From Balanoglossus misakiensis (taxonomy: Eukaryota; Animalia; Hemichordata): a stretch of DNA of 64,000 nt. Shown here in pieces: positions 42,501 to 64,000 of this stretch; the first letter of the stretch is position 1, and each line of letters opens with the position of its first letter. A program made the translations under genes and the position numbers. The notes under the pieces were generated by a model. That model saw only the letters and a list, made by a program, of their open reading frames with translations. It was not told the DNA's origin and made no database searches. Location: the NCBI GenBank assembly GCA_040954595.2, contig CM082579.2:15786550-15850549 (forward strand), in the 5' to 3' direction.

Positions 42501-45500
42501 TTGGAAAGTTACAAAAAATACCTGTTTTCTACATTTTCGGAAATCTGATGGAGTATAGAATGCTCTTCGTATGTATATATCGATACAAATTCCACAAAAG
42601 ACCGTCTAATTTGGCTCACTGCAGACAAAATTGCGTTTTACCAAATTTTCCTTGAAAATGTCATTTTTAGAAAAAAAAATAAAAAAACCTTTGTTTTTCG
42701 AATTTGGTGCCCTGATCATATATGACATGTTGATTGTATGTTCAAACTCTCGACCACTCCAAAAATGGTAAATTTTTGAAAAATCATAAAAAAATTAACT
42801 CTTTTCTTCATTTTCGGAAATATTATGGAGCATGAAGTGTCGTTCTCTTGTAAAAAGTGCTGCAAATTCCAGAAAAGGCGGTATAATTTGAATCACCCAA
42901 GACAAAATTGCAATTTTTGGACTTTTTTTCGAAAAATTGTCTTTTTTACAAAATAAATAAGAATAAATTCTTTTCTTAGTTTCAAACGGGTAGAGATACT
43001 TTCCACACTGGTTTTCTAACATTGAATTCGCGTTCATCAACTCAGATTTCCTACAGCATAAGTCGGCTAAAACCCTGACACTCTAGAGCAGAAACAGTTG
43101 CACACTGGTAACGTTGAACAAGTCGATTTTTCTACGGCCTGGCTCGGCTAAATCTCCGTCACAATATGACAGACACTAGCGTACGTTAGCAACGGTGATC
43201 AAGTCAGATTTTCTACGGCATGGCTTGGATAAAGCCCCGGCACTCTAGAGCAGAAACACGCGTACAGAGACCACGTTGATCAAGTCTGATCTCCTACGGC
43301 TTGGCTCGACTAAAACCCCGGCACACTATGACAGACACTAGCGTTCGTTAGCAACGTTGATCAAGTCAGATTTCCTACGGCATGGCTTGGCTAAAGCCCT
43401 GGCACTCTAGAGCAGAAACACGCGTACAGAGACCACGTTGATCTACTCACATTTCCTTCGGCCTGGCACGGCTGATGCCCCGGCACTATATATAGGACAC
43501 AGACTGGCGTAAGTTAACAACGGTAATCACGTCGGGTTTCCTACGGCCTGGCTCAGCTGAAGCCCCGGCACTCTAGAGCAGAAACAGGCGTACATTGACC
43601 ACGTTGATCAAGTCAGATTTCCTACGGCGTGACTCGGCTGGTGCACCGGCTCTATATGACACAGACAGGCGTAAGTTATCAACGGTGATTACGTCGGATT
43701 TCCTTCGGCCTGGTTTAGCTGAAGCCCCGGCACTTTAGAGCGGAAACACGCGTACATTGACCACGATGATCAAGTCAGATCTCCTACGGCCTGGCCCGAC
43801 TAAAACCCCGGCACACCATGACAGACACTAGCGTTCGTTAGCAACGGTGATCAAGTCGGATTTCCTTCGGCCTGGCTCTGCAAAAGACCCGACACTCTAG
43901 TACAAAGACGTTGGCTAAGTCGGGCAAACCGAACAGGGAAAGTCACAGCGGGTCAACACTCGACATTTGTTCCGGGAGGACTGCATTATTGCCTGTCAAT
44001 TTATAGAGAAAGCCCGAATTTAACCAGGGCGTTTCAAACACCGACGTTAGTTGGGGGCACGGCCTGCAGTACTGCCGGGTAAGCTGACATCAGCGTACCG
44101 CATATAATGTAGGGGGGGGGGAACAGAACGGTTAAATACTACATTTATCAGATATCAGCTAATTTTGGACAATCATCTAAAATGTAAATCATCTTTTCAT
44201 ATTTGGATATCTGATGATGATGTATGACATTTCCATTATATGTAAAAATGGTGCTGATTATAAAAATGCACTCTGAATGAGCTGATTTAATGCAAAATTG
44301 CGTTTTATTCGTTTTTGCACCAAAAAAGTCATTTTTAGGCAAAACATTCTTTATTTTTTTAATTCGGTGACCTGATCATATATAAACAATTGCTTGTATG
44401 TTAAAAGTTTTTATGACTTTTAAAAGCAGTGACACTGGCGGCATTCAACACGAAAATAACAATTTTAGCCACAATTTGGTCAAAATGGTAAATTTTTGAA
44501 AATTACAAAAAATACCTGTTTTCTACATTTTCGGAAATCTGATGGAGTATAGAATGCTCTTCGTATGTGTATATATCGATACAAATTCCACAAAAGACCG
44601 TCTAATTTGGCTCACTGCAGACAAAATTGCGTTTTACAAAATTTTCCTTGAAAATGTCATTTTTAGAAAAAAAAAATAAAAAAAACTTTTATCTTCGAAT
44701 TTGGTGCCCTGATCATATATGACATGTTGATTGTATGTTAAAACTTTCGACCACTCCAAAAATGCAGAGATATTGACGGAATTCAAGAAATAATAGCCAT
44801 TTTGGCCATATTTTGACAAAAATGGTAAATTTTTAAAAAAATCATAAAAAATTAACTCTTTTCTTCATTTTCGGAAATATTATGGAGCATGAAGTGTCGT
44901 TCTCTTGTAAAAAGTGCTGCAAATTCCAGAAAAGGCGGTATAATTTGAATCACCCAAGACAAAATTACCATTTTCGAATTTTTTTCGAAAAATTGTCTTT
45001 TTTACAAAATAAATAAGAATTAATTCTTTTCTTAGTTTCAAACGGGTAGAGATACTTTCCACACGGGTTTTCTAACATTGAATTCCCGTTCATCAACTCA
45101 GATTTCCTACAGCATAAGTCGGCTAAAACCCTGAGACTTTAGAGCAGAAACAGTTGCACACTGGTAACGTTGAACAAGTCGATTTTTCTACGGCCTGGCT
45201 CGGCTAAATCTCCGTCACAATATGACAGACACTATCGTACGTTAGCAACGGTGATCAAGTCAGATTTTCTACGGCATGGCTTGGATAAAGCCCCGGCACT
45301 CTAGAGCAGAAACACGCGTACAGAGACCACGTTGATCTACTCACATTTCCTTCGGCCTGACACGGCTGATGCCCCGGCACTATATATAGGACACAGACTG
45401 GCGTAAGTTAACAACGGTAATCACGTCGGGTTTCCTACGGCCTGGCTCAGCTGAAGCCCCGGCGCTCTAGAGCAGAAACAGGCGTACATTGACCACGTTG

Positions 45501-45926
45501 ATCAAGTCAGATTTCCTACGGCGTGACTCGGCTGGTGCACCGGCTCTATATGACACAGACTGGCGTAAGTTATCAACGGTGATTACGTCGGATTTCCTAC
45601 GGCCTGGTTTAGCTGAAGCCCCGGCACTTTAGAGCGGAAACACGCGTACATTGACCACGATGATCAAGTCAGATCTCCTACGGCCTGGCTCGACTAAAAC
45701 CCCGGCACACCATGACAGACTATGGAAAGCCGTTGGGGACCCCCGACAACTTCTCTCAATACATGGGTAAAGTCCATAGACAAATGATAGGAACGCATAT
45801 GCTGAAAATATGACGCACATTGGGTGCCGACGCCATAATCTAAAATGCCGGTAACAACCAAATTTTTGCCGACACCTTTACTCAATCTACCGGCGCCGAC
45901 AAAATCACAACCGGTGATTTGATGAG

Positions 45927-46308
45927 TTCTCGCATCGGCGTTTCTACAGAGTTGTCGCATCGGCGTTTCAGCTAGAGTTTTCTCGCATCGGCGTTTCTGG
46001 AGAGTTTTCTCGCACCGGCATTCTACACATGCGCATTGGCGTTTCAGCTAAAGAGTTTTCTCGCATCGGCGTTTCTGGAGAGTTTTGTCGCACCGGCATT
46101 CTACACATGCGCATTGGCGTTTCAGCTAAAGAGTTTTCTCGCATCGGCGTTTCTGGAGAGTTTTGTCGCGCCGGCATTCTACACATGCGCATTGGCGTTT
46201 CAGCTAAAGAGTTTTCTCGCATCGGCGTTTCTGGAGAGTTTTGTCGCGCCGGCATTCTACACATGCGCATTGGCGTTTCAGCTAAAGAGTTTTCCCGCAT
46301 CGGCGTTT
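45927..46308. repeat. CpG-rich subterminal tandem repeat, 78-bp period, ~4-5 copies, built on a CGCATCGGCGTTTC motif
   Basis: TTCTACACATGCGCATTGGCG recurs at 46021, 46099, 46177 and 46255; shorter motif copies precede it. Confidence 0.95.
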
Positions 46309-46333
46309 TCTCTGATTTTCTGAGCATGCGCAG

Positions 46334-48389
46334 TCACCACTGCAAACAGAACTTGTGGAGCGAAGTTGTAGTGAAGGTAAGAAAAGTTATGTTCGTTTGT
46401 CAAGTCTTTTCCGCTAGTTTCCTGCGAATTCACTGTCTCGTCTGTGTTATCTTTTTTTAAATAACTGTTTCCTAAACTCTTTTCGTGAAAAATTCTCTGG
46501 TTAGTTTACGTATTTCAGCCGATCATCCACAGAGAAGTTCTCAACTTGAAATGATTGCTGTTGATATGCTAATATGGCGCTCGCACGAAGTTAACTGAAT
46601 GTCCATTTTGGGTGAGGGTCAGAGTTCGCTGGCTGGCTGTGTGGAAATCTTACTGGTACTCCTTGGAAAAGTGGCTGCAATTTGTAAACGGACAAAAAAT
46701 TTTGTTCAGGAATTTAGTTTGGGAACAGAAAATAGTAAGTTCAGGGAGGTATAGGTCATTTTTTACTGTTCAAATGTTAACCCAAGTTGGGTTCCTGTTG
46801 GGAGTCCATAGCTGTTTGTTTTATGAGCCTACAGATAGTGAAACTGATAGTGACACAGCTGAAAAAACATGGGTTGATCACATTATTGGTTGGTTTCTAT
46901 GGACACCTGCATTTCAATTAGATGTGATGTTCTTGTTTTCATGTATAATGTTTGCCCCAATTTCGACTATGATATTTCACACTTGAATAAGGTATGATAA
47001 AATAAACAAATTTTGACAGTTAAGTTTACTACAGAAATTAAATTAAAAGAAACTTCATCAAGTCATAGAAGTCGCCAGATTTCATAACCGTTCATAGATT
47101 CCTGTCTGGGACAAATATAACCCAATTTGTTTCCATGTTTTTTGTTTTTCTAGTATTGATGCGATAAGCCTGTTGTATATGTAATACTTGTCTGTGCAAT
47201 TTTTGAGAACAATTCACCACTGCAAACAGAACTTGTGGAGCGAAGTTGTAGTGAAGGTAAGAACAGTTATGTTCGTTTGTCAAGTCTTTTCCGCTAGTTT
47301 CCTGCGAATCCACTGTCTCGTCTGTGTTATCTTTTTTAATTTACTGTTTCCTAAACTCTTTTCGTGAACAAATTCTCTGGTTAGTTTACGTATTTCAGCC
47401 GATCATCCACAGAGAAAGTTCTCAACTTGAAATGATTGCTATTGATATGCTAATATGGCGCTCGCACGAAGTTAACTGAATGTCCATTTTGGGTGAGGGT
47501 CAGAGTTCGCTGGCTGGCTGTGTGGAAATCTAACTGGTACTCCTTGGAAAAGTGGCTGCAATTTGTAAACGGACAAGAAATTTTGTTCAGGAATTTAGTT
47601 TGGGAACAGAAAATAGTCAGTTCAGGGAGGTATAGGTCATTTTTTACTGTTCAAATGTTAACCCAAGTTGGGTTCCTGTTGGGAGTCCATAGCTGTTTGT
47701 TTTATGAGCCTACAGATAGTGAAACTGATAGTGACACAGCTGAAAAAACATGGGTTGATTACATTATTGGTTGGTTTCTATGGACACCTGCATTTCAATT
47801 AGATGTGGTGTTCTTGTTTTCATGTATAATGTTTGCACCTAAAGTGGTAAATTTAGGAACAAGTCTGCAGACCTTTTTCAGCAACAGTCAAAACGCAACT
47901 GTGTCATAATAATGCACTGGAATATGTTGAAAAGCTGAAAAAAAGAGAGTTCAACATAATTTAGAAAAGAACAAAAAGAAATGTAACGGATGATATACAC
48001 TGTCATGGAATCTCCATGAATTTGATTGAACTCTTTATTTGAACTTTGACTTTTTTTTCTAATGACATTCATGTAAATTTACATGATTTATTCCGATTTA
48101 CCAACCAATTTATAAACTGTAATTTTTTTCACTATAATGCCCCAAGTTCGACTATGATATTTCACATTTGAATAAGGTATGATAAAATAAACAACTTTTG
48201 ACAGTTAAGTTTACTACAGAAATTAAAAGAAACTTCATCAAGAAGTCGCCAGATTTCATAACCGTTCATAGATTTCTGTCTGGGACAAATATAACCCAAT
48301 TTGTTTCCATGTTTATTTGTTTTTCTAGTTTTGATGCAATAAGCCTGTTGTATATGTAATACTTGTCTGTGCATTTTTTGAGAACAATT
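46334..48389. repeat. Diverged tandem duplication (46334-47213 and 47214-48389) containing a candidate non-coding first exon
   Basis: TCACCACTGCAAACAGAAC...GAGAACAATT occurs twice; copy 2 has ~300 extra bp (~47836-48138). Each copy has a strong donor GAAG|GTAAG (46377, 47257). Confidence 0.92.
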
Positions 48390-48559
48390 AGAATTTCCTA
48401 CCAAAATGGTAATAAACTGATAAAATGAACAATCTAACAATTCAGATATTTTCCAATATAATTAGGATACAGTTAGGCCCTGAGCTATTCAGTTTGTGTC
48501 GATATACAACTAAACTGATACAATACTGGTGTTATACCTTTGTTACACTTGCAGACATC

Positions 48560-49846
48560 ATGTTACTGGCCCAAAAATTGCAAACTTGATATAGAAACCA
48601 AGACACTGTAGCAAATGATGTCATCCTTCGCTTCAGAGATGGTCAGACGAGAAGGGCCCATTCATTGGTGTTGTGTCTTTTTTCGGATGTGTTTGCCGCC
48701 CGTTTGCATTCGGAATGATCCAACGACAAAACCATTGATTGTTCTGACTTTGATCCCTTACTCATGCAAAATGTCATTGATGATTTTTATTTTGAAAAGT
48801 TAAATATTACAAGTGAAAATGTTGAAGATTATGTGGAGATATGTAACTTTTACATGATAAATTCTTTAAAAGAGAAATGTGAATCATTTTTAATTTCCAA
48901 CATTGTAACTTCCCGCAGTATTAGAGACCTTGTATTTTGTCAGAAATACCAGTTAGATAGTACTTTTGAACACTGTCTGTCAATAATTGATCAGAATGGT
49001 GTTAAACTGTTTAATTCTGAGCAAGTTTTGGAAGATTTTCTTCAACTTCCTGAAAGCATAGTTGTAAAAATAATTCAGCGTCAGACGCTTTCGGTAAAGG
49101 AAGACACACTTTTGAATGCATTGTTTTTATGGGTGGAAAGGAAACTTCAGGGTGTCAATGGCAATGATATGGATGCCCCCTTTTGTTTTGAGCCATTTCT
49201 TCCCCACATCCGTTTCTTGTCGTTAAGTGAAGAAAGTATTCATCGACTAATTTCTGAACAAATTTTGTGTTATGAAGATGTCTTCCAGATATTAAAAGCA
49301 GTTCGACATCCTGGATGCAATTTTCCTGTTCCTGGTTATGTGGATGTAATCACAAGAAATGTGGTTCCAAATAATGCCATTGTGGCGCGGCGTTTCATCA
49401 ATGAAAAAAATCCAAACACATGGAAAGGAAACCAATTTGAGGGTGACAGGATTTCCTTTTCAGTGGATGTTCCTGTCTCACTGCTAGGTGTTTATGTGTT
49501 TGGAAATACAGATGAAAGTGTCCATGCTCATGTCACAATATTAAATCATCAACAAGCTGTTGTGTACAATACAGAAGCCTCAAACACTTCCCCCCAGATT
49601 ACCTTTCCTGTTGTCTTCAGTAAGCTGATTAAAATCCAACCCAATGTAGATTATTCAGTTGTCTGTCAAATCAGAGGAAATAAAGAAACATCATTCGGGT
49701 CATGTGGGATCTCTCGCCGAAGAATCACAACATTAAAAAGTACTGATTTCTGGGTGACATTTAAAAATTTCAGTATGCAAGGTCTGAGCAATGGCACAGA
49801 TGTCAGTCAGGGGCAAATCTCATCACTAATATTATTTGATATATAA
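48560..49846 (+). pseudogene. Intronless BTB-BACK-PHR domain gene (BTBD1/2/3/6-like Cullin3 adaptor architecture) with two in-frame TGA codons
   Basis: ATG 48560 is in frame with the 360-aa ORF at 48764. BTB start DVILRFRDG...AHSLVLCLFSDVFAARL; BACK FLQLP...LSVKEDTLLNALFLWVE...LPHIRF; PHR RRF...DRISFSVD...LLGVYVFG...SNGTDVSQGQI. TGA at 48587 and 48716. Acceptor TTGCAG 5 nt before the ATG; AATAAA at the stop. Confidence 0.85.
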
Positions 49847-49958
49847 ATAAAGGTGTTGTTTGGCAGGACATGGTGTATTGGTTTCTGGCACCCATCTTGA
49901 CTGAAAGAATTTTGATGAAATCAATTTGTAATTCTTGAGGGATGATATGTGTTTTACC

Positions 49959-50260
49959 AGGTCCCATTTGGTATATGCATATATACCATTGGAACCTTAT
50001 GGGATTGGTTGCGTCTGTAATAGTATTTATCAGAAATTTCATTTGAGGGTGTGCATCAGATGTAGTTTCCTTGATTTTGTTTTTCAAATCAAGGGGAAGA
50101 AATCAATTGTATATTTTTGGGATGATTTAGGACATTCTTGGTCAAAAAATATTTCTCAAAAGCCTCTACCCTGATTGCTTTGAAATTTGCAGACCCTTTA
50201 ATGAAAGTGTAGATTTCGTATTCTTGTGGCTGTTTTTTTCCATTTTTGGTACAAAAATCA
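49959..50260 (+). mobile_element. Decayed Helentron-associated (HINE/DINE-like) non-autonomous element fragment
   Basis: 5' hairpin AGGTCCCATTTGGTATA...TATACCATTGGAACCT followed by TATGGGATTGGTTG, homologous to the start of the 53486 element. The right boundary is approximate. Confidence 0.5.
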
Positions 50261-51664
50261 ATTTCTCTGAAACGGGTTGTCCATCCAATTGCTTTGCAAT
50301 TTACTAAATGTAGTTTCCTTTGGGGATTGTTATTATGATATATCAAAATTATAGTGAAAATGAAAATCTTGTATTTTTGTATTATGTTTTCTAGGTTTCC
50401 ATGTATTAGTTGATATCAGAAAGTTTTCAATTGATTTCTGTAAAATTTGAGTTGTGAGTCAACGGGATGTGCTCCTTTATAATTATAATGGGATCAAATC
50501 AAAGTAAAATTTGAATTGTTGTATTTTATGACATTTTGTCTTATACATTTACCACAATTTTTTTTATCTCAAGCAGAAAAATATCCTGAACATTGTTCTT
50601 TGCAAGTTAGATGAAATCCCCTAATGAGTTTTTTTACACAGAAAATGTCTACATGTTTATATAACTTAGCCCATCTGTCAAGAGACAGTTCTATTTGCTG
50701 TTCTATTTGGTGTGTGCACAGTACACATGCCATTGGCAGCTCACGAGTCAGTCAATGGCCAGTCAGTGTTTGCCTGTTGATCTGTGTGTGTGTATTCTGG
50801 TGAAAACCTTTCCTTCCGTAATCCTTAAACGGGACCACACTGTCCTTGACGGTATTTTTCTCTTTGATTCTGAAATTGTCATGATAATTCCAGGCCCTTA
50901 CACTATAGGCACTTTGCAAATGTTAGCAGCTGAGTTATCGAACCCTATCAAAATACCTAAACTGTTTCTTTTGCTACTTACAACATATGTCTGTGACAAA
51001 TACTGCTTCATCATTTTATTATATAAATGCTCAATTGCAACACTGATTTGAGAGAAATGTATCTTGGCTTATTTTATAGTTCTGTAAATAATTTCCAAGT
51101 ACATGTAGTACTGTTGACAAAATTTGATTAACTACTGCTTTATACTGTCATGGGCACCAACTCCGTCAATTATATGTGATTGAACTGCCAGTATGAACTC
51201 TCATAAACCGCCACATTTCCACTCCACTATGACCAATTGATCTGAGTGAAACGGCGTCGCAATGAAATTTGGACTGTCATAAGCCATATATCACATGTAA
51301 GCAATATGGATGATTTCAATGCTTCTTTATGCTTTGTATTGTGTAAAGCTCTGTTGTGTCAGCTAGTTTCTGGTTTGAGTCTAGTCATGGATTTCATTGT
51401 TAATACATGATGCGATTGCTGTTATCATAGAAAATAGAGTTCAAGTCAACAACAGCCTTTAAACATATGCATACTGTGTCTTCTAGCAGAATACTTGGTG
51501 TATAAAAGCACTTTTGACAACTTGTATGGCATTTATATTCTACTGGGTGTATCAACTAATAGTTTGTTCTATTGGCGGCAGCATGTAGAAATGTTCAGTG
51601 TTGCCAGTAGGAGATGAGGTACAACAGATAGTTATTTTATGTTATGCTTTTAATATCATTTCAG

Positions 51665-54600
51665 ATGTATAAGAGAAAAGAAGACCTGACCAAAGGTAAA
51701 TGTGAAATGTACTGTAAATGTAGGAAGATACTTTTTCCCTTGGAAATTTTGCACTCGTCAATTTGGATAATTCACAAAAATTGTTTTCTAGAATTCGTAT
51801 TTTTCAGCACAGTTGCTTTCTCACTTGATGCCTATGGAATATCCAACTCATTGAAAAAAGTGCAACTGTTCAAACAATTTAAGTAACACCTAATGTTTTT
51901 TATCCCTTGAAAGAGAGTCAAGAAGCATTGGGGCGACTAGCCGAACAGTTTCAGATGAAAGAGGCTGAAGTAAAATCAAAGAGACTGAAGCGATCTGTTC
52001 CAAAGCCACCAGAACAACAGGTAGGAATTGCAATCCAAATGATACATACATGAAGAAAGATAAGAACTGCCTTTCTTGAAGTATTTTGGGAAGTTTTTAG
52101 TCCCCCCCCACCACTAACCTTTTTGTATTTTGTCTACACTTTTGTTTTCTTTCCATTCTACACCCAATAGCATGATGAATTGCCCAGTACATGTATTTAA
52201 TTTCTCATCATCTAATTTACAGACAAGGTAAACATTCTAGACACTGGTAATTTCATCATGCTTTAGGGAATAGAATAGAAGTGTAGAGTATACATACACA
52301 GGAAAGTATAGACCAAGGTTATGTACAGTTCAGCCTTTAAGCATTATACGTAATTGCTAGGAGTTATAACACATGTTTTCTTCATATCCATGCAATGTAC
52401 AAGTCTTTTCCTTGTTAGTTATTTCCTGATTTTATGAAAATTTAAGTTTATATTCATGCCATTTTACATACATTTATTAAAATTTTGATGTTTACCCTAT
52501 TTTGTAACATTTTCATTCAGGTGTTAAATGTTACACCACTGATAAAAGACAGTAAAGGAGTTCTAAAGAAAATGGGGGCAGTACTACCATCAGCTGTCGG
52601 CAGAAAAAGTCAGGTGGCCATTACCGTGGACAGTGGCTCAAATGCCATGCACTGGGCCCAGAGTGTATCGGCACACTTCATCGACGTGGATTTTGTACCT
52701 TATGAGATGAATGACATAGGAGTGTTCATAAGGATGAAGGACCCAATGAATTTCCAATTAAAAGACCTGAAGGCAAAATACAAAAGTATGAAGGCGAAGA
52801 CAGACAAGTTGCCAGTCTTCATGTTTGCAGTTGGGCAGAGTGAGTAAATCATGTCTATTTACATTGTCACAAGTTGTGTCAAGTATTTAACTGGATAAAT
52901 TGAAAGGTTGTTTTTTTTCTTTGTGCCCGTTTTGTGTTGGATTATCCAGGTTAAAAAGTCATGGTAGTTTTTTATTATTCACTTGCTTCTTTTTAAACAA
53001 AAACAGACAAAAATAGAAGTGGCAGAACTTGTTTTGTTGGAAGAAAAGCGCCATTTCTGTCATTGTCACATGACTGGGCAGACCCCATTATCCAGTGGGT
53101 ATCATTGGCATGGTGGACTTTATGGTTGGTATATTCATGCTATCATGCAATTATGCAAAGCCTGGCATGAACATAACAAATTCAACAAATGCCATTTTAG
53201 ACATGTATTTGCAAAATTGCAGGATAGTGGTACCTGTCTGGTCATGTGACAATGGCCCAAGTATGGGCACTTTTATTCCAACAATGCTACCTCCAAGTTC
53301 CACCACTTTGATTGTGTAAGTGCACAGGTGCATTATACTTGATTAACTTGATTATCTGACTCAAAGGTTGCACTAAAAAAGTTTCAGCCTTGTCTATCAG
53401 TGACCCCTTAAGGCAAAGTCTCTCTCTGCTTCTTGCTGCTTTTTTACATTAATTATGTTTGATACAAGATATTGTTTGTGTTATTAGGTCCCATTGGTAT
53501 AGGCCTATATACCATGGGACCTTATGGGATGGGTTGTGTCTGTATGGATGTATGTATGTATGTCTGTATGTCCGTCCACATCAAAAACTTGAAAAACCGC
53601 TGCGCGTATCACCTTGATATTTGGTGTGCAGATGCAGGCAGGGCTGTAGATGGGAGTTTGTCCAAACGAAGTTGCCAGGCCCAAAAATATGCAAATTAGC
53701 CAGTAAAATTTGAAATTTATCAAAACTCTGAAAGTCAACAACTACTGCTCAGATTGCTTTAAAAATTGGTATGCATGTACCTTATGTCAACCTCACATCG
53801 ACCTGTAAGTGTTAAGTTAATATCATGGATGTTTTATTTTTTATGAATTTTTTAGTCTTTTTATTAAATTTATACCTTTACTTATACCTCTATGGTTAAG
53901 CTATGTCCACGTCTTATTGTGGAGTTCTGGTCTGTGCAATAGTCCTGTACAGTGACTGTCTATTGGTCAGTGAGCACAATGGGGCCAAAATAAAAGGCAA
54001 ATTTTTGGGCTCACCTGTAACACCTGCTTAACACATTAATTATGTGCATACCTAATTCCAGGCTAACCAATAAGGCTATAGGTTTGGTTTTTATTGAACA
54101 TGGACCAGTATAAGGTCAAAATTTCTTGCCCAAATTTTGCATGACCTCAGGTGACCTTTGACCTACTTTATCATATCTTGGCATCCAGAGCAGGTAGAGA
54201 CTTCGCGTTTGGAGGGTTGGGACTAAAATTGAAAAGCCAAAATTGGGGGTCACCTGTGACACTTGCATATCTCATTAATTATGTGCATACCTAATTCCAG
54301 GCTAGCCAATAGGGCTATAGGTTTGGTTTTTGTTGAACATGGACCAGTATAGGGTCAAAATTTTATGCCCAAATTTTGCATGACCTCAGGTGACCTTTGA
54401 CCTACTTTTCCATATCTTGGCATCCAGAGCAGATGTGCTTATTGCTATGTTGCTATGTTTTTACATGTAGACATACAGCGAATCAACATTCGACCACACA
54501 CAACTTCCATTTCACTTGTATGATGATATGAGAATAAAAACTCGCCCCAAATGAAAAAAATGGTAGAGGAATATTATTCATTTTGGCGATTTTTTTTCAC

Positions 54601-57282
54601 TCATGTCTTCAAGCCAAATGGAAGGTGTGTGTGGTTGAACGTTGATTCACTATATATCCACACATATAATAACATAAACGGTGTCTTGTATCAAACATAA
54701 TTAATGGAAAAGGGGCAGCAAGAGAGAGACATTGTCCCTTTAATGACCTATTTTCCAGAGTAAATCTGTCCTTTTGTTATGTGTAGTCCCAGGTTAGAAC
54801 TATGGTTTGTAGTTTTATTGCCAAAGGTTCAAGGATCCTCCTACGAGAACATCTGGTCTTTGTATAGTCAACATTGAGAAATGATTTTAGTATGGACTAA
54901 AACTCAGTAGTAAATAATTAACAGTTTCTTTATGCATATGTGAGCTATGCTGATGTGCTTATCAATTTTCAGGGCATTTCTGTATTCTGTATTTTTTTTT
55001 GTATTCCACAGCAAAACATTCTTTGAAAGCATCCTTTGTTCAAAAGAAGCTGCAACTGCAAGACAAAGAGTTCGAGCAGCAAGAGGAACCTGAACAAGAA
55101 CAAGAAATGGTCAAGGTATAATGGCATGAATATTTTAACATGTGAAATTTAGTCTGCCAGTGATGTCATGGTTTGTAATACAGTGTGGCATACAGTATCT
55201 ACTGGCGATGAATTGAAATCTTGACATTTCAACAAAATTTATGGGGAACAAAAAATATAGTTTAAGCACAAAACAGCAACATTTTACAAAATCATAATTA
55301 CAGCCAGATAGATATTTCATTTTTTTATTTTCTGTTATAGGGTACTGACAATGAAAAGTTAGTGTCCTGTGATCCTGTGTCCTGTGATCCTGTGTCCTGT
55401 GATCCTGTGTCCTGTGATGGTGTCAATGAAGATGTAGAAGTGATTGCGGTTGAAAATTCTGTTGACATAACAGTGGTGGAGGAGGTGGCAGCTTCATGTG
55501 AGGAATCCATGAAAGAATGTACTGCTGAACAGGCATTGAATTCAGAACAGGTTAGACATGATTAATTAACTACTATAAATGATGGAGCAGGTTCTCCGAA
55601 TAAATATTCGAATGATCAGGCACTTCTAGTCAATACCAATTGTATTTATTGGCAAAATGTCTATTCTGCTACAGTAAAACCTGTCGAAACTGAACACCAA
55701 AGTGACTGAAGAAATTATTCCATTTGCAAAGGTGTCTGGTTTATAGGGGTTCTTTTAACATGTGGTTCCATGTCAAAGGGACAGGAACATGTGTTCAATA
55801 TAGATAGGTTTCAAGATTAGACAGGTTTTACTGCTGCATGAGGAAATATGGGGACAGTCAGAGCAGATATGATGGAAAATAACTCTGACTGGTATTTGCA
55901 AAGGTGTTGAAAGATTATGGAATGACTCTTAAACAAATGGGGCTTTCACATGTGATGTTTAGGCCGCCCCTGGGGGATATTGATTAGTCTAAGGTATTAA
56001 ATGGTATCAATATTAACGTTACAGGAAAGAGAGAAACAAGCTCAAAGGAAATTGCAGAGGAAAGATGTAAGTTTAGTCGAATTTTGATTCTGAGTCATAC
56101 ATTTGACTGGATTGGTTATACTCCTACACCAAAGTGACAGTTTGGGCAATGATGTTAATACTGGATTGAAACGTGTTGATTGTCTTTGTAGTTTTTGATA
56201 AATTCTTCATTTTTACATTTATAGGATAGTTTTTGATAAATTGTTAATTTTTAGGTCCAATGTCTAAAAATTTAGAGCTCAGAGGTGCATTCTACTAAAT
56301 GTTTGTTTTGTACTTTCTCATCCACATACCTATTTCACGTTAGGCAAGGCAATCTCTTCCCTAGGAACCGGTTAGTCAGTGAATTGTCTGCTCAGGTTAT
56401 GACACTCAATGTGTTTATTTCTTTACAGGCAGCACAACCCAGAGCCGAAAATATAAGATTGCCCTTGATTAACGAAAGGAAAAGACAAATCTGCATCATG
56501 GTGAACGATGAGGTCCTGGAAAGGCCATTCAGAGACCTAGATACACTCAAAGTAAGTCAAGATATGGGCCATCAAGTGTAAATTGTGTGTTTCATGTTCA
56601 CTGTTCAAATACAGTCCGTTGCAGCCTTACAATGTAAGGCATTTCTGAGTGTAACTGCAGTCATACCAAAATAAAGAAACCAAGGTTTGGATTAATCATC
56701 ATATTCTAGCATTATAATTGTAAACATAAAAGAATCTATTTGCTTTGCAGGATGTCTTTGATTGGATTTGCGGTACAGTTGATTCAGAAGATCTTCCTTG
56801 CAGATTTTTTCTGCAATGTTTCGATCCTCCCAACTGTGTTGATTTTCAGTGTCAGCATGAATACCATGCCACAGCTGAGGCTGACTTCCTTTTAGTAGAA
56901 TATCTACCAGAAATGATGCTAGTGAAAGAGGTAATTTAATAATTTTAAAATTTTTTGATGATATTTGCATATTTCGGTGTTTGCCAATTTTGAGAGATTG
57001 ATCAACTGTCTTTTTTAGCAGTTTTATACTGAAAATCGAGTTGTCCAAAAATGCACAACATTCTTCAGTCTCGTGAAACAGAATCCAAATGTTCACATAG
57101 TACAGCTATTCTGATTACCAAGTTTTATTTCGCATCACAAAATGTCAGTACATACACATGAATATGATAAACAATGTTTTTTAATGCATGAAATCACTTT
57201 TTTATTTGTTCAACAGATTAGTGGTGACCTGGATGACACCCTAACAAACTATGATGATGTTCTTCTGTGTGGGCTGTTTTGA
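51665..57282 (+). CDS. Multi-exon gene: N-terminal globular domain, acidic/coiled-coil linker, C-terminal UBX-like domain
   Basis: Phase-consistent GT-AG exons: 51665-51695, 51914-52020, 52521-52839, 55012-55115, 55341-55550, 56025-56066, 56429-56551, 56751-56930 and terminal 57217-57282 (TGA), with no internal stop. RQICIMVNDEVLERPFRDLDTLK|DVFDWICG...RFFLQCFDPP resembles UBX (R.F...DTL.DV.DW...F.L...P). Upstream or extra exons are possible. Confidence 0.75.
53486..54432 (+). mobile_element. Helentron-associated (HINE/DINE-1-like) non-autonomous element in an intron
   Basis: Terminal hairpin AGGTCCCATTGGTATAG/CTATATACCATGGGACCT, then a (TGTA/TGTC)n microsatellite, then two ~239-bp tandem core repeats (~53990-54432). 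This is the characteristic HINE layout. Confidence 0.65.
54474..54654. mobile_element. Palindromic MITE-like element (~180 bp)
   Basis: TACAGCGAATCAACATTCGACCACACAC... pairs with ...GTGTGTGGTTGAACGTTGATTCACTATA, and imperfect pairing continues inward. Confidence 0.7.
55672..55833. mobile_element. Tc1/mariner (pogo/Tigger-like) MITE; duplicate at 58212-58373
   Basis: 14-bp TIR CAGTAAAACCTGTC...GACAGGTTTTACTG, with TA on the left side only. Confidence 0.7.
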
Positions 57283-57310
57283 ACTGTACTTGTGAACATT
57301 TTTTTTTACT

Positions 57311-57510
57311 AGGGGACCATTCAGTTTTTACGGCGGGAGGTAGGTAGGGGGAGTCGGCAAAATCAAGGGGGTGTCACTTAAATTTGGAAATTCAAAAGGG
57401 GGGTCATCATTTTTTGGTCCCGTGTAAAGGGAATGGGGGGGGGGGGTCTGCCTGTTTTTGAAAACAGATGACACAAACTTGCCCCAAGCCATGAAAACTG
57501 AACGGCCTCT
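57311..57510. mobile_element. G-rich MITE, probably PIF/Harbinger-like; duplicate at 59851-60049
   Basis: Imperfect TIR AGGGGACCATTCAGTTTT...AAAACTGAACGGCCTCT, with internal G-runs. Confidence 0.55.
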
Positions 57511-57551
57511 AAAGTATTAGCTGTTGTATTGTTCTCTTTAGTTGTGTACAG

Positions 57552-59822
57552 CAAAACATTCTTTGAAAGCATCCTTTGTTCAAAAGAAGCTGCAACTGCA
57601 AGACAAAGAGTTCGAGCAGCAAGAGGAACCTGAACAAGAACAAGAAATGGTCAAGGTATAATGGCATGAATATTTTAACATGTGAAATTTAGTCTGCCAG
57701 TGATGTCATGGTTTGTAATACAGTGTGGCATACAGTATCTACTGGCGATGAATTGAAATCTTGACATTTCAACAAAATTTATGGGGAACAAAAAATATAG
57801 TTTAAGCACAAAACAGCAACATTTTACAAAATCATAATTACAGCCAGATAGATATTTCATTTTTTTATTTTCTGTTATAGGGTACTGACAATGAAAAGTT
57901 AGTGTCCTGTGATCCTGTGTCCTGTGATCCTGTGTCCTGTGATCCTGTGTCCTGTGATGGTGTCAATGAAGATGTAGAAGTGATTGCGGTTGAAAATTCT
58001 GTTGACATAACAGTGGTGGAGGAGGTGGCAGCTTCATGTGAGGAATCCATGAAAGAATGTACTGCTGAACAGGCATTGAATTCAGAACAGGTTAGACATG
58101 ATTAATTAACTACTATAAATGATGGAGCAGGTTCTCCGAATAAATATTCGAATGATCAGGCACTTCTAGTCAATACCAATTGTATTTATTGGCAAAATGT
58201 CTATTCTGCTACAGTAAAACCTGTCGAAACTGAACACCAAAGTGACTGAAGAAATTATTCCATTTGCAAAGGTGTCTGGTTTATAGGGGTTCTTTTAACA
58301 TGTGGTTCCATGTCAAAGGGACAGGAACATGTGTTCAATATAGATAGGTTTCAAGATTAGACAGGTTTTACTGCTGCATGAGGAAATATGGGGACAGTCA
58401 GAGCAGATATGATGGAAAATAACTCTGACTGGTATTTGCAAAGGTGTTGAAAGATTATGGAATGACTCTTAAACAAATGGGGCTTTCACATGTGATGTTT
58501 AGGCCGCCCCTGGGGGATATTGATTAGTCTAAGGTATTAAATGGTATCAATATTAACGTTACAGGAAAGAGAGAAACAAGCTCAAAGGAAATTGCAGAGG
58601 AAAGATGTAAGTTTAGTCGAATTTTGATTCTGAGTCATACATTTGACTGGATTGGTTATACTCCTACACCAAAGTGACAGTTTGGGCAATGATGTTAATA
58701 CTGGATTGAAACGTGTTGATTGTCTTTGTAGTTTTTGATAAATTCTTCATTTTTACATTTATAGGATAGTTTTTGATAAATTGTTAATTTTTAGGTCCAA
58801 TGTCTAAAAATTTAGAGCTCAGAGGTGCATTCTACTAAATGTTTGTTTTGTACTTTCTCATCCACATACCTATTTCACGTTAGGCAAGGCAATCTCTTCC
58901 CTAGGAACCGGTTAGTCAGTGAATTGTCTGCTCAGGTTATGACACTCAATGTGTTTATTTCTTTACAGGCAGCACAACCCAGAGCCGAAAATATAAGATT
59001 GCCCTTGATTAACGAAAGGAAAAGACAAATCTGCATCATGGTGAACGATGAGGTCCTGGAAAGGCCATTCAGAGACCTAGATACACTCAAAGTAAGTCAA
59101 GATATGGGCCATCAAGTGTAAATTGTGTGTTTCATGTTCACTGTTCAAATACAGTCCGTTGCAGCCTTACAATGTAAGGCATTTCTGAGTGTAACTGCAG
59201 TCATACCAAAATAAAGAAACCAAGGTTTGGATTAATCATCATATTCTAGCATTATAATTGTAAACATAAAAGAATCTATTTGCTTTGCAGGATGTCTTTG
59301 ATTGGATTTGCGGTACAGTTGATTCAGAAGATCTTCCTTGCAGATTTTTTCTGCAATGTTTCGATCCTCCCAACTGTGTTGATTTTCAGTGTCAGCATGA
59401 ATACCATGCCACAGCTGAGGCTGACTTCCTTTTAGTAGAATATCTACCAGAAATGATGCTAGTGAAAGAGGTAATTTAATAATTTTAAAATTTTTTGATG
59501 ATATTTGCATATTTCGGTGTTTGCCAATTTTGAGAGATTGATCAACTGTCTTTTTTAGCAGTTTTATACTGAAAATCGAGTTGTCCAAAAATGCACAACA
59601 TTCTTCAGTCTCGTGAAACAGAATCCAAATGTTCACATAGTACAGCTATTCTGATTACCAAGTTTTATTTCGCATCACAAAATGTCAGTACATACACATG
59701 AATATGATAAACAATGTTTTTTAATGCATGAAATCACTTTTTTATTTGTTCAACAGATTAGTGGTGACCTGGATGACACCCTAACAAACTATGATGATGT
59801 TCTTCTGTGTGGGCTGTTTTGA
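57552..59822 (+). pseudogene. Duplicated 3' exons (six) of the UBX-like gene
   Basis: Copies of exons 55012-57282 shifted by 2540 bp, lying downstream of the first copy's stop codon. Confidence 0.75.
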
Positions 59823-60375
59823 ACTGTACTTGTGAACATTTTTTTTTACTAGGGGACCATTCAGTTTTTACGGCGGGAGGTAGGTAGGGGGAGTCGGCAA
59901 AATCAAGGGGGTGTCACTTAAATTTGGAAATTCAAAAGGGGGGTCATCATTTTTTGGTCCCGTGTAAAGGGAATGGGGGGGGGGGTCTGCCTGTTTTTGA
60001 AAACAGATGACACAAACTTGCCCCAAGCCATGAAAACTGAACGGCCTCTAAAGTATTAGCTGTTGTATTGTTCTCTTTAGTTGTGTAGTTTAGAAAAGTT
60101 CTTCAAGGCAAGGTGTCAAGTGCAAGTAGAGTTCTTTTGCTGCAAATGCTGTAGTGGGTTCATGATTCCATCCATTCATTTGGCATATGTTCCGTGCCAC
60201 AACTGCGAAATCTTCATTGCAACCATTATTAAAGTTACACTGTGACTTGCATAGCAAGAAAGTTTGAGAGCCAGCGTTGACTGAATGTATGTAGTTCCGA
60301 CAATTAGGGCGGTCTGAAATAACAAAATATGTTTGTTCAAATAAGAATTTATGTATGGGTTAAATACTATGAGGG

Positions 60376-60496
60376 TATTACGAAAATACTGCAAAGTATG
60401 CTCAAGGACATTAGCGCCACGTATCGCCTGATGCGTAGCGGAGGGCGATGCACTATGCTAATGTCCAAATATATACTTTGTGGTATTTTCATAATA
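60376..60496. repeat. Long imperfect hairpin / palindromic MITE-like element
   Basis: Nested arms TATTACGAAAATACTGCAAAGTAT/ATACTTTGTGGTATTTTCATAATA, GGACATTAGC/GCTAATGTCC and ATCGCC/GGCGAT around a GCGTAGC tip. Confidence 0.7.
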
Positions 60497-60974
60497 AAAT
60501 TATTATTGTACATCTTACATCTCAGTTAGTTCTTGTGTTGCATATTATTTGGCTTTCAAAACGCTGGTACGATCAACCATAACCGATCAGCTGAAACACA
60601 GTACACAGTGAGCAGCCATCTTTCTTTTTTGTTTATATTGGAGTATCTATTGTTCTTGGTGCCAGATGTATATTAAGTTATTTTATTTTATTTACCTTAA
60701 GCAATGAAGTGATTGAAATGTTATTTTTCTATCATTCTCTGCAGATGTTATGTAATCTTGAGATTTTTGTTGAGGAAACTTTCCAATGTTCATGATTTAT
60801 GCTTTAAACACTGCATGTCATTTACTTCATGGATAAGCCTTATGTTGACCTAATGAGTGAAATACCCACATGACTTGTGATCTACATTCAGTCACAGGGT
60901 CCAGATTAGGTAGCATTTCTGCAATTTTAATGAATCTTTGTTGGTTTCTTTATTTTGTTGCAATAAAAAAGTAC

Positions 60975-61894
60975 CTAGTAACTCAGGACAGGTATAGAGA
61001 ATTTCTGGAATGCCTGATACAGAATCTCCTTTATTTTGTCGCCTTATTCTGTGGTGGTTCCACCTCTCAACTACCTCATCCAGTTCCCTTTGCATGACAG
61101 AAAAATAACAAAACTGCATACTCATTCTGAAAGAAAAAATGCAAATTGATTTCAAGATGCTTGGGAATAATATGTGCATTTTATCATACTTAACAAATAG
61201 CATAATGTTACAAGTTTATGGAAATTCATCCAGTTAAAAATATGATTTCCAGCAGATCTACGGATTTCAAACGAACTGCAATATTTGATCTCCTGTCTAT
61301 GTCTCTACCATCCTGTCTGTGTCTGTTTCTTCTCTGCTCTGTGCAAACATTGACAGATTGAATAATGGAATTTCTTTCATTACTTGAAACAAAACATAAA
61401 GTGTATCAACTCACATGTTGACCGGGTCACCTAACTGCAAATGACCCATTGATACCAAATCCTAGGGGATAAAAAATTGATAGTGGTGAATTTCCTGTAA
61501 TGCTACAGTAAAATGTGTCAGTGAATGTGGTCTTGTACTTGTGTATAAACTGCCTGCAAGGCCATGGCCAAGAAAAAAAATGTTTGGAAAGCCTAGTCCT
61601 CATGTATAAAAACTCTGCAGGACAATTCAACATCATGATATGAACTGACTTGAGCTATACTGGTTATTTTTCTCATTCCTACACACAACTGCATCCACTA
61701 ATGACATTGCATCTTGGGCTGTGGCACATTCTATGAGAATACAAATTTTGTCACTTATACAACCATCTTTGTGTTTGAGTTGATTTTGTTTTGCAGAACA
61801 CATTTGTACAAGCCAAATGATACTTTACCTTAAAATGGTCAATCCACCAATCTGCACTTTTACTTCTTAACACACCCCACCATCGTTCAATACG
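60975..61894 (-). CDS. Spliced DDE integrase-core transposase, IS3EU-like (C-terminal catalytic exons; 5' exons not in window)
   Basis: Phase-consistent GT-AG exons 61894-61829 (RIERWWGVLRSKSADWWIDHFK), 61461-61415 (DLVSMGHLQLGDPVNI) and 61126-60975 (MSMQFCYFSVMQRELDEVVERWNHHRIRRQ...GIPEILYTCPELL). The RIERxW (catalytic E) and WNxHxIR motifs match eukaryotic IS3-like integrase cores. The 3' end is unresolved. Confidence 0.8.
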
Positions 61895-62575
61895 CTGTAA
61901 GAAGAGATCACAATGAAAACAATGGTCTGACACAATTACTGTCACCACTCTGAACAAACAAATGTGAAACACGATACCAAAAGTGTCTTTTTTGGATTAT
62001 ATTGTGAAACAAAAAACTGCACCAAATTTGAACAAAATTTGCTCAGGCATGCAGCAGCAATGGAATCGGTGACTGAAGTAGGGAAGATGGGGAGTCTATG
62101 AGGTTTGAGGATAGTCTCCTCAAGCATATAGTCATCTTAACAAGGTAGTGGAAAAATGGGTAGTATTAACAGTCTTTTTATCTCATGACACGGTACAGCG
62201 TAGGTATTCCTAAGAAAAATTGTGATGTCATTTGTCATATGTGGATAGAGGGCGCTGCGCATGGTCGACAAGTTCAGCAACATCGTCTCTTGGTACGAGC
62301 CAAAAATCACTCCTTAGTTGGAACTTTTTTTCATCACCGGTCAATGTGTCGATTTTTGAAGGCGTGGACTATTAGCTGGCAACGGATTTTTGCGGAAGAT
62401 TGCTGTAACTTTTTGTCAAAAGTGAGTTTTCATTTTTATCTATCAAGTCGAAGCCAGCACACAGAATCCTGCCATTAGTTCCAGTCGATCTCATTATGCA
62501 TGCAAAATAGTACTGGAATTCTGCTCCTTTGTTTAAAACCCACGTTGTGTAATCGAACACCTGTGCTCATTCACG

Positions 62576-63388
62576 ATGCCGAGAAGAAAAGACCAAACAC
62601 CATATGGATCATCAGACTCTTGCCAATCAACACCTCCAGCTGGCACACCACAATCAATAGAAAACCGGCTTGCTGAAATCTGTTCACATGTAAATCACAT
62701 ACCGGCACTATTGATCAGTATTGCTGAGCTCAAAGAAAGCCAAAGCACAATAAATTCGTCACTTTAGTTCTTCAACGGACTTGTAGAGGAAGTACGTGGA
62801 CGAGTTTCTACTTTGGAGCTTGAAAATAAAGAAGTCAAAGAAACGAATGCACAGCTTTTCACTCGCATCACAGAGCTCGAGAAATCTATGGAAAGTATGA
62901 ATCAGTACAATAGACGTGAAAACATTGAACTTCATGGAATTCCTGAAAGTGCAGATGATGGAGAAAATACAGATGCAATCGTAACAAGAGTGCTAAAAAA
63001 GATCGATCCAGGTATCAGTGACCACGACATTGTGATTACCCACAGATTAGGTCAAAAGCATACAGGTGACAATGCTGCACCTACTTTCCCAAGACCAATC
63101 ATTGTGCGATTCTTAAGCAGGAAGAAACGCGACTATATCCACCGGAACAAAAAGAAGCTAGCGACCATTACAACTGGAGATATTGGATATGCCAATCGGA
63201 ACAAAATCTACGTAAATGAAAATCTAACTCCAAAAGCACGCAAACTTTTTAAGATGACGAACGTGAAGCGCAAATCAGCACGCTATAAGTATGCGTGGAC
63301 GCGGAACGGTGAAGTTCTTGTGAAGAAAAGTGAGCAGTCACCTGTACTAGTGATAAGGAATGAGCTGGACCTTGCCAAGATTGTATAA
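62576..63388 (+). pseudogene. LINE ORF1 (coiled coil + RRM-like + C-terminal domain) with one premature stop
   Basis: ORFs 62576 and 62813 are in the same frame, split by TAG at 62765. Motifs QYNRRENIELHGIPE, HRLG, PRPIIVRF, IYVNENLT and YKYAWTRNGEVLVKK. Confidence 0.88.
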
Positions 63389-63430
63389 ACCATCTTGTAG
63401 ACATTTTCTTGGTTTCCCATATATTGCTTC

Positions 63431-64000
63431 ATGCCAAACTCAGTAAATGACATAGATGATGACATTTTCACAGTTACAAATCATATACTAGAACCGTCAA
63501 CATTTAATGATAAATTTAGCTCTAGATCCAGCCATTCTTTCTCAGTATCTCATATTAATGCAAGATCTCTCTGTAATAGTATAGACGATGTACGTCTCCT
63601 GTATAATGAATGTATCACCAGTCCTTTTCGCATTATTGGTGTTTCAGAAACCTGGCAAATCAATAATCCAACTTTTTTTAATTTGCCAAATTACTCTTTT
63701 GAGTTAAATAGCAGAAACATCGGTCGGGGTGGCGGGGTAGGGGCATATATTCATTGTTGTCTTAAATACAAACTGTTAAACTTTAATGTGGTTCATTCTG
63801 AATCACTATGGTTTGAAATATGCGGGTTAAAGAATCTCATAGTTGTCGGTGTGTTATATCGCAAACCAGGAACTAGTGTCACAGAGTTTGAAGACAGTCT
63901 TTTTAATGTTCTTTGTTCTTTGAAACTGGATAAAAAACATTGTATTCTTATGGGTGACTTTAATATTGATGTGTCAAGTCCAGATTCAAGTGCTCGGGAT
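63431..64000 (+). CDS. LINE ORF2 N-terminus, APE-type endonuclease (truncated by window end)
   Basis: Open for 190 codons from ATG 63431: HINARSL, IIGVSETW, GRGGGVGAYI, ESLWFEI, VGVLYRKP, ILMGDFNID. Absent from the supplied track because it has no stop in the window. Confidence 0.93.
   Translation, partial: MPNSVNDIDDDIFTVTNHILEPSTFNDKFSSRSSHSFSVSHINARSLCNSIDDVRLLYNECITSPFRIIGVSETWQINNPTFFNLPNYSFELNSRNIGRGGGVGAYIHCCLKYKLLNFNVVHSESLWFEICGLKNLIVVGVLYRKPGTSVTEFEDSLFNVLCSLKLDKKHCILMGDFNIDVSSPDSSARD

What the first reader, a model, noticed from the sequence alone, without database searches (positions are those of the whole stretch)
45721..64000. Candidate giant IS3EU-like transposon carrying ubiquitin-system cargo genes (BTB-BACK-PHR and UBX-like)
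Seen: the satellite is cut mid-monomer at 45720 by TATGGAAAGCCG; then come subterminal repeats, two plus-strand genes and a convergent spliced DDE transposase ~15 kb inside. Recalled knowledge: IS3EU elements have TAY...RTA ends, 6-bp TSDs and two genes; BTB-BACK proteins are Cullin3 substrate adaptors; UBX proteins are p97/VCP adaptors. Inference: this is a single element >18 kb whose two passengers both act in ubiquitin-dependent protein extraction or degradation, possibly to disassemble the transpososome or counter silencing proteins. A cargo-carrying animal IS3EU of this make-up is not something I recognise as described.
Basis: partly seen in the sequence, partly recalled or inferred. Interest (0 to 1): 0.85.

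Follow-up and report, generated by a model that had tools for sequence, protein, structure and literature searches.

The report
Transposon carrying BTB and UBX-like genes
This is a large cut-and-paste transposon of the known IS3EU type, inserted in a satellite array of what is likely an acorn worm; besides its transposase it carries a BTB-BACK-PHR gene (broken in this copy) and a second gene with a weak UBX-like domain, which likely let it borrow the host's ubiquitin machinery in place of the ligase domain that many relatives carry.

Summary
Observation confirmed. The satellite is cut cleanly at 45720/45721. A public contig carries the inverted end followed by ACAGAC and resumed satellite, giving the predicted TIR (≥108 bp) and 6-bp TSD. 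The TATGG end matches published IS3EU termini. Four convergent exons encode a transposase C-half 73% identical to a Ptychodera flava protein; a nested LINE hides the rest. The BTB-BACK-PHR gene is real but has two stops here; the majority contig lacks at least one. Gene 2 splices to an open 393-aa frame with a weak UBX-like domain, related to the usual convergent IS3EU partner (UBX-HECT in relatives) but without HECT. Its p97 motif is not conserved and its Cul3 motif not clearly met, so the ubiquitin mechanism is inferred. Depth is flat at about 18 times this copy's, with few distinct flanks: several copies share one satellite site (array co-amplification more likely than targeting). Much of the 18 kb is duplication and nested inserts. 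My searches found no paper on this cargo, but the scan noted it before on other DNA (an oyster note with the same gene set; many HECT-bearing IS3EU). Verdict: new variant of a known kind.

The parts
45166..45720 (+). Flanking 81/162-bp satellite block (part of a ~2-kb composite unit), cut mid-monomer
45715..45720 (+). 6-bp target-site duplication ACAGAC (second copy seen at the right junction in run X2)
   Evidence: table 7; comparison
45721..45828 (+). Left terminal inverted repeat starting TATGG; at least 108 bp, depth falls to one-end level near 45860
   Evidence: X2 contig 45721-45828 depth 6705; 45830-45945 depth 2898
45927..46330 (+). CpG-rich subterminal 78-bp repeats (CpG observed/expected 1.37 over 45721-46400) with five GCGCATG motifs; likely promoter and transposase-binding zone (inferred; NRF1 likeness recalled)
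46334..48389 (+). Duplicated 5' segment (627 bp at 97.8% and 263 bp at 92.8%), each copy with a putative non-coding first-exon donor (after 46376 and 47256)
   Evidence: sequence
48560..49846 (+). Single-coding-exon BTB-BACK-PHR gene (BTBD1/2/3/6-type architecture); acceptor at 48554; in-frame TGA at 48587-48589 and 48716-48718 in this copy
   Evidence: majority allele
51665..57282 (+). Gene 2 (ORF2), nine exons: 51665-51695, 51914-52020, 52521-52839, 55012-55115, 55341-55550, 56025-56066, 56429-56551, 56751-56930, 57217-57282; 393 aa; unassigned N-terminal domain, acidic linker, UBX-like C-terminal domain, no HECT
   Evidence: frames; UBX-like
53442..54740 (.). Nested very high-copy palindromic and tandem inserts in intron 3 of gene 2
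   Evidence: summed depth 10^5-10^6
55008..60087 (+). Tandem duplication of 2540 bp (99.96%) repeating exons 4-9 of gene 2; not doubled in depth, so likely private to this copy or an assembly artefact
60090..61894 (-). C-terminal 162 aa of an IS3EU DDE transposase in four exons: 61894-61829, 61461-61415, 61126-60975, 60313-60090; includes the RIERWW motif with the third catalytic residue; stop 267 bp from the gene-2 stop
62250..64000 (+). Nested LINE (start approximate) in a transposase intron: ORF1 62577-63388 with an in-frame stop at 62765-62767, ORF2 APE endonuclease from about 63401, running off the window
   Evidence: no upstream transposase exon in the window

Best explanation
This is an IS3EU/GingerRoot cut-and-paste transposon with inverted ends and a 6-bp target duplication that carries three genes, and its two non-transposase genes likely work as a kit for borrowing host ubiquitin machinery. 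Shown: ends, TSD, the transposase C-half, the BTB-BACK-PHR gene and the spliced open frame of gene 2. Inferred: gene 2 is the usual convergent IS3EU partner, which is UBX plus HECT ligase in relatives, here without HECT; the BTB-BACK-PHR protein, probably transcribed from the CpG-rich left end, would supply the missing ligase function by recruiting host Cul3 and marking a host chromatin or silencing protein, or the transposase itself, while the UBX-like domain would help hand the product on. The window copy is a decayed one of about 18. Several copies share one satellite site, most likely because an insertion was amplified along with the array.
For: Right junction with TSD (X1 consensus fits it at 18 of 30 letters with all 12 mismatches explained by a two-contig tie). 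TAYGG..CCRTA ends and 6-bp TSDs are published IS3EU features. Transposase 72.8% identical over 162 aa to P0001, which has Pfam rva_4 at E 9e-33; motifs match Repbase IS3EU rows by eye. X1 depth 683-745 is flat from 48.4 to 57.3 kb, against 37.5 for the window's own allele at 48055. In 11 metagenome IS3EU loci a HECT ORF lies convergent to the transposase (8 of 11 above the Pfam cut-off), and L048 has UBX above cut-off plus HECT. Gene 2 matches a profile of the L048 and L065 UBX regions: 10.5 bits with 0 of 300 shuffles as high; hhalign 26.1 with 0 of 100 shuffles. The majority contig lacks the second BTB stop and has Phe near the PHR C-terminus, where BTBD2 has Ile. BTB-BACK-PHR proteins are Cul3 adaptors (10.1101/575910, abstract).
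Against: The R...FPR p97 motif (PMC5389986, passages) is not conserved in gene 2, where the loop reads F-D-P. The phi-x-D/E Cul3 motif is not clearly met: the aligned acidic position is Asn against KBTBD2, and the loop is two residues shorter against A55. The UBX match is weak (hhalign probability 26%) and rests on a two-sequence profile. The N-terminal domain of gene 2 did not match relatives' N-terminal domains (38 of 100 shuffles as high). No BTB gene was found in 120 related loci, though most are short. Whether the first BTB stop is also absent from the majority was not visible. Depth over the transposase was not measured. The runs may be the window's own source, so they are not independent support.
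Confidence: 0.55

Rival explanations
1. Same element, but the BTB protein acts without Cul3: it would heterodimerise with host BTB-zinc-finger repressors or adaptors and sequester or export them, and gene 2 would be a scaffold that does not bind p97.
For: Cul3 and p97 motifs are not clearly kept. Btbd6 engages Plzf by BTB heterodimerisation (10.1101/575910, abstract).
Against: The BACK domain is retained above the Pfam cut-off. [quoted passage not shown] Relatives carry a ligase at this position.
Confidence: 0.2
2. The BTB gene is a passive hitchhiker, a captured or retroposed host BTBD6-like copy with no role for the element, and gene 2 is a truncated, decaying remnant of a UBX-HECT partner. 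Copy number reflects satellite amplification, which needs no gene function.
For: Two stops in this copy. Single coding exon. GingerRoot elements often carry gene fragments (PMC6839031, parts 2-3 of 7). Most depth may come from one satellite site. No BTB in 120 related loci.
Against: The BTB gene is full length and far from any database protein (none at E 1e-5 among 1742 candidates), yet keeps all three domains and a 375-codon open stretch. Gene 2 keeps nine in-phase exons, 8 of 9 with a single open frame. An unchecked note reports the same gene set in an oyster element (e1-8622937).
Confidence: 0.2
3. On copy number: the element repeatedly targets this one site of the satellite monomer rather than being amplified with the array. 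A third possibility is that most copies are dispersed and their flanks were lost from the contigs.
For: Both satellite junctions are deep (X2 7000 and about 1650 by subtraction, against 71 for the window's private allele); only two other flanks were seen. An IS3EU-like repeat accumulates at putative centromeres in Hydractinia (PMC11934779, passages). The X1 right-junction depth could be as low as about 130, roughly 3 copies of 18, which leaves room for dispersed copies.
Against: GingerRoot shows no nucleotide preference beyond GC-rich targets (PMC6839031). The two other flanks seen do not match this site; the pattern of one is absent from the window. The majority also carries the nested insert at 53442 (contig ends), as expected for descent from one copy.
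Confidence: 0.25
4. Not one element: a short TATGG-ended MITE or a chance neighbourhood of host genes and a transposase relic.
Against: Flat depth from the left end through gene 2; end depth about twice interior, not far higher; TSD closure; 267 bp between convergent stops.
Confidence: 0.05

Closest known systems
IS3EU/GingerRoot superfamily (Repbase; PMC10045372 passages and supplement part 12; PMC6839031 parts 2-3 of 7)
   Same: TA..TA ends, 6-bp TSD, TIR of about 100-150 bp, rva_4-type DDE transposase with the NQRIExWW motif, gene-poor insertion site
   Different: Larger than the published GingerRoot range of 3.9-12.9 kb (at least 13-14 kb up to the LINE even without the duplications); carries full-length genes rather than fragments; BTB-BACK-PHR and UBX-like cargo not mentioned in the passages read
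TET+ IS3EU families of rust fungi and Tuber (PMC12730594, passages)
   Same: TAYGG..CCRTA ends, 6-bp TSD, three-gene layout with an extra gene and a partner opposite to the transposase, proposed anti-silencing role
   Different: Fungal cargo is TET/JBP plus alpha-kinase; here it is BTB-BACK-PHR plus a UBX-like gene in an animal
Animal IS3EU loci with a convergent UBX-HECT or HECT partner (L048, L065 and others)
   Same: Convergent second gene with a UBX-like domain
   Different: Gene 2 ends after the UBX-like domain with no HECT; a separate BTB gene is present; N-terminal domain homology not shown
BTBD6-type Cul3 adaptors (10.1101/575910 abstract) and vaccinia A55 (10.1101/461806 passages)
   Same: BTB-BACK(-PHR) architecture; a parasite-encoded cullin adaptor has precedent in A55
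   Different: Transposon-borne, highly diverged, Cul3 loop motif unclear, binding untested
Zisupton with F-box (PMC12062965, passages citing Bohne et al. 2012)
   Same: DNA transposon encoding a cullin-ligase adaptor domain
   Different: Different superfamily; F-box is part of one element-protein isoform, whereas BTB here is a separate gene

Membership tests
IS3EU/GingerRoot | TA..TA (TAYGG..CCRTA) termini in inverted repeats | tested here: met
   TATGG at 45721; inverted end with a different flank in X1 and X2; literature
IS3EU/GingerRoot | 6-bp target-site duplication | tested here: met
   ACAGAC at both junctions; right junction comes from public contigs, not provably from this copy
IS3EU/GingerRoot | IS3-like DDE transposase of this lineage | tested here: met
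   72.8% identity to P0001 (rva_4, E 9e-33); motifs as in Repbase IS3EU rows; no tree with Repbase sequences was built
IS3EU/GingerRoot | Complete D-D-E triad in this copy | not testable with these tools
   Only the Glu-bearing exon onward is in the window; the N-half lies beyond the LINE; no genome held
IS3EU/GingerRoot | Insertions at independent sites | tested here: inconclusive
   Two other low-depth flanks with diverged ends (3 and 8 differences); much of the depth is at one satellite site
BTB-BACK-PHR Cul3 adaptors | BTB + BACK + PHR domain order | tested here: met
   Pfam above cut-offs; PDB hits BTBD2 PHR, A55, KBTBD2; Atlas BTBD6-like clusters 0.95-0.96
BTB-BACK-PHR Cul3 adaptors | phi-x-D/E Cul3-binding loop | tested here: inconclusive
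   Acidic residue not matched in pairwise alignments; loop alignment is gapped
BTB-BACK-PHR Cul3 adaptors | Intact reading frame | tested here: not met
   Two TGA stops in this copy; the majority lacks the second, the first is unresolved
UBX-domain p97 adaptors | UBX (beta-grasp) domain | tested here: inconclusive
   No Pfam hit on single exons; weak but above-shuffle match to IS3EU partner UBX regions, one of which passes the Pfam cut-off; fold model of that relative poor, FAF1-UBX at rank 7, Z 3.4, rmsd 2.6, 49 aligned
UBX-domain p97 adaptors | R...FPR p97-binding signature | tested here: not met
   Aligned loop reads F-D-P in gene 2, F-P-H in L048, F-P-R in FAF1
HECT-bearing IS3EU partner gene | C-terminal HECT domain | tested here: not met
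   Gene 2 stops 267 bp before the transposase stop; no HECT hit among the 17 window frames scanned

The most novel reading that the evidence does not exclude
A lineage of large animal IS3EU transposons has swapped ligases: it dropped the HECT domain from its partner gene and took on a stand-alone BTB-BACK-PHR adaptor that hijacks host Cul3 to destroy a silencing factor. It has kept this three-gene kit across phyla, and in this genome it homes to one site of a satellite monomer.
Probability: 0.25. Interest if true: 0.78.

Novelty: new variant of a known kind. Interest (0 to 1): 0.5.

Why it matters
Animal DNA transposons are not generally known to carry stand-alone cullin adaptors. If this kit is functional, it gives a testable route to how cut-and-paste elements counter silencing in animals: identify what the PHR and BTB domains bind. 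It would parallel poxvirus BTB adaptors and fungal TET-bearing IS3EU elements. It also suggests that some lineage-specific 'BTBD6-like' and 'UBX/HECT-like' gene expansions in invertebrate annotations are transposon genes. The shared satellite site bears on how transposons enter and spread within satellite arrays. The copy itself is decayed, and ubiquitin-system partners of IS3EU recur in other loci, which limits the surprise.

Tried and rejected
No whole genome is held, so no genome-wide BLAST was possible. Homologue searches for gene 2 found nothing: exon 3, 64 candidates, none at E 1; Atlas no usable hit; exon 8 no candidate; PDB sequence searches of exons 7 and 8 gave only chance-level hits. 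The BTB word search scored none of 1742 candidates at 1e-5. The single-sequence fold of exon 3 was poor (pLDDT 41) and its fold search gave only generic alpha/beta sandwiches at Z up to 6.6: no fold assigned. A ubiquitin-like identity for that domain was not supported. The fold of the L048 UBX region was poor (pLDDT 56). No RNA holder was listed, so splicing and expression are untested. Viral contigs gave nothing for the transposase or BTB. L121, a 15.6-kb contig with an intron-rich relative spread over 8.3 kb, showed no BTB or gene-2 match; small diverged exons would be missed. L122 was not examined. X3 gave no cover of the left end. No complex prediction was run, as no host Cul3 or p97 sequence was available. 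I rejected reading the BTB stops as recoding: the majority allele is a sense codon at the second stop. Literature searches with no relevant paper: 0 papers each; 20 of 31 listed, none on topic by title; 4 listed; 40 of 62 listed. Repbase Reports and the 2019 Kojima review were not readable here and may describe IS3EU partner genes.
Full report
Observation. The first 45.7 kb is a satellite of 81/162-bp monomers in a roughly 2-kb composite unit. Twenty-one monomers read CCATGACAGAC|ACTAGCG and the one at 45700 reads CCATGACAGAC|TATGGAAAG, so the break at 45720/45721 is clean. The end occurs once in the window. No genome is held, so I used public contigs. Three runs of one sample were listed, two holding 83-88% of the words, none on record as RNA. 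They may be the window's own source.

Ends. Laying 45698-45945 gave, in X2, one contig with 27 loose letters before 45721 that are the exact reverse complement of ACAGAC + ACTAGCGTTCGTTAGCAACGG. In X1 the consensus of two loose ends fits the same flank (18 of 30 letters; in all 12 mismatches the consensus letter sorts first, as a two-contig tie would give) and does not fit the left flank. One X2 contig spans 45721-45828 at depth 6705, and depth falls to 2898 beyond about 45860, so the TIR is at least 108 bp. Published IS3EU elements have TA..TA ends, TAYGG..CCRTA in rust fungi, and 6-bp TSDs (passages). GingerRoot TIRs are 100-150 bp and elements 3.9-12.9 kb.

Transposase. Four minus-strand exons with GT-AG introns join to 162 open codons, 72.8% identical to P0001 (Ptychodera flava XP_070548835.1) and 60.5% to P0008 (Glandiceps talaboti, three accessions). 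P0001 has Pfam rva_4 at E 9e-33, and its core motifs match Repbase IS3EU rows by eye. The host is therefore likely an acorn worm (inference). No upstream exon lies in the window. From about 62250 a plus-strand LINE follows (ORF1 with a stop, APE-bearing ORF2), so the N-terminal ~235 aa and the right end lie beyond it. In a 35-row tree (33 of 120 loci had enough coverage, 32 after removing a duplicate), the window groups with the two acorn-worm proteins (100/100). Seven HECT-linked rows fall on both sides of that group under a midpoint root, which I did not test.

BTB gene. 48560-49846 encodes BTB, BACK and PHR, all above Pfam cut-offs, with BTBD6-like Atlas neighbours. This copy has TGA at codons 10 and 53. 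The region across the first stop still aligns with the KBTBD2 N-terminal helix. The majority contig (X1, 48360-51317, depth 683, four differences and one gap) reads a sense codon at the second stop. Three of the four differences were listed, so the first stop is unresolved. The phi-x-D/E Cul3 loop (passages) is not clearly met.

Gene 2. Nine exons join to an open 393-aa frame; 8 of 9 have a single open frame, and it is the one the splice phase demands. I chose the exons by eye, so this is partly circular. Direct searches found no homologue. For context I fetched 120 metagenome loci with a transposase motif (scan cut at its limit, about 240 estimated); 118 of 120 were confirmed. Of 284 non-redundant neighbouring ORFs in loci of 2.5 kb or more, I scanned the 145 longest. 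Eleven loci have a HECT ORF, all convergent to the transposase, 8 above the cut-off. L048 has UBX above cut-off plus HECT, L021 has a USP-type ORF, and none has BTB. The only tblastn hit of gene 2 in the 120 loci overlapped the L048 UBX (E 0.054). A profile of the L048 and L065 UBX regions scores gene 2 at 10.5 bits, above all 300 shuffles (187 gave a score, maximum 5.6); hhalign scores 26.1 against a shuffle maximum of 14.9 in 100. So the C-terminal domain is UBX-like and akin to the usual IS3EU partner, but HECT is missing and the FPR motif is not kept. The N-terminal domain stayed unassigned.

Copy number and site. The tool warns that contig depth is no copy number, so these are rough ratios. 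X1 depth is 683-745 in the eight listed pieces from 48.4 to 57.3 kb. The window's own allele at 48055 has depth 37.5, and two diverged ends with other flanks have 38.3 and 49.5. That suggests about 18 near-identical copies, of which the window's is a decayed one. The 2.54-kb duplication is not doubled in depth. In X2, which looks like Hi-C from a GATCGATC join and so has biased depth, the left and right satellite junctions have depths 7000 and about 1650 (by subtraction), against 71 for the window's private allele. In X1 the right junction works out at 130-540. Only two other flanks were seen. At least several copies, and perhaps most, therefore share this exact site. Co-amplification with the array is the simpler reading, since GingerRoot shows no sequence preference. 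Targeting is not excluded, and an IS3EU-like repeat is enriched at putative Hydractinia centromeres.

Size. The 18,280 bp in the window include about 1.75 kb of LINE, the 2.54-kb duplication, a 0.88-kb 5' duplication and about 2.1 kb of palindromic inserts. This leaves 13.1-14.0 kb up to the LINE with the palindromic inserts still counted, plus the unseen part. It is large for the superfamily, but partly through introns and inserts; a relative's transposase alone spans 8.3 kb.

Mechanism. Shown: ends, TSD, genes and multicopy state. Inferred: a CpG-rich left-end promoter with a non-coding first exon feeds the BTB gene and perhaps gene 2; the BTB protein would recruit host Cul3 in place of the lost HECT domain and remove a host repressor or turn over the transposase. 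I put the element's identity at about 0.9, a functional role of both genes for the element at about 0.7, and the Cul3 route within that at about 0.6. Rivals are BTB sequestration without Cul3, and passive hitchhiking.

Comparison and novelty. It is a member of IS3EU/GingerRoot by ends, TSD and transposase. It works, by inference, like TET-bearing fungal IS3EU, Zisupton with its F-box and poxvirus A55. My searches found no paper on BTB, UBX or HECT cargo in IS3EU; Repbase Reports were out of reach. The scan's own unchecked notes report many large IS3EU elements with ubiquitin-system partners and one oyster element with a BTB-BACK-PHR gene and a two-ubiquitin-fold gene. I could not verify the oyster case, and I did not reproduce a ubiquitin-like N-terminal domain here. 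Verdict: a real, new variant of a known kind with an untested mechanism; interest 0.5.

Noticed in passing
window 30572-36551 (-): A YR-type retrotransposon inserted in the same satellite, with split direct repeats of 311 bp (30572-30882/31269-31579) and 270 bp (31008-31277/36282-36551), both over 99% identical, and three long open frames (gag-like, RT by Pfam, recombinase-like by eye); the layout is Ngaro-like (recalled)..
   Followed up: partly
window about 24200-24870: A 5'-truncated LINE 3' end with an (ATT)n tail inserted in the AT-rich part of the satellite unit (read from sequence).
   Followed up: no
window 1-45720: The satellite is a roughly 2.05-kb composite unit of an AT-rich spacer plus 81/162-bp GC-rich monomers, with 19 spacer copies in the window.
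   Followed up: partly
window 48718-48719 and 56437-56438: Two independent tandem double substitutions, both at a GG inside GGCC in the majority allele; cause unexplained.
   Followed up: no
window 55362-55418 and 57902-57958: A 15-bp coding repeat (3.8 copies) gives VSCDP repeats in the acidic linker of gene 2.
   Followed up: no
L021:7972-9648 (-) and 6981-7421 (+): A USP-type deubiquitinase ORF convergent to an intron-rich IS3EU transposase, with an ankyrin ORF between them; whether they lie inside the element was not tested.
   Followed up: no
L054:725-2854 (+): A 710-aa ORF convergent to an IS3EU transposase with no Pfam hit at 1e-3; it shares an N-terminal domain with L013, L029 and L045 and looks HECT-like by eye.
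   Followed up: partly
L121 (JBEVXV010000339.1): A contig filed in a bacterial MAG carries an intron-rich animal-type IS3EU transposase, so it is probably host contamination.
   Followed up: partly
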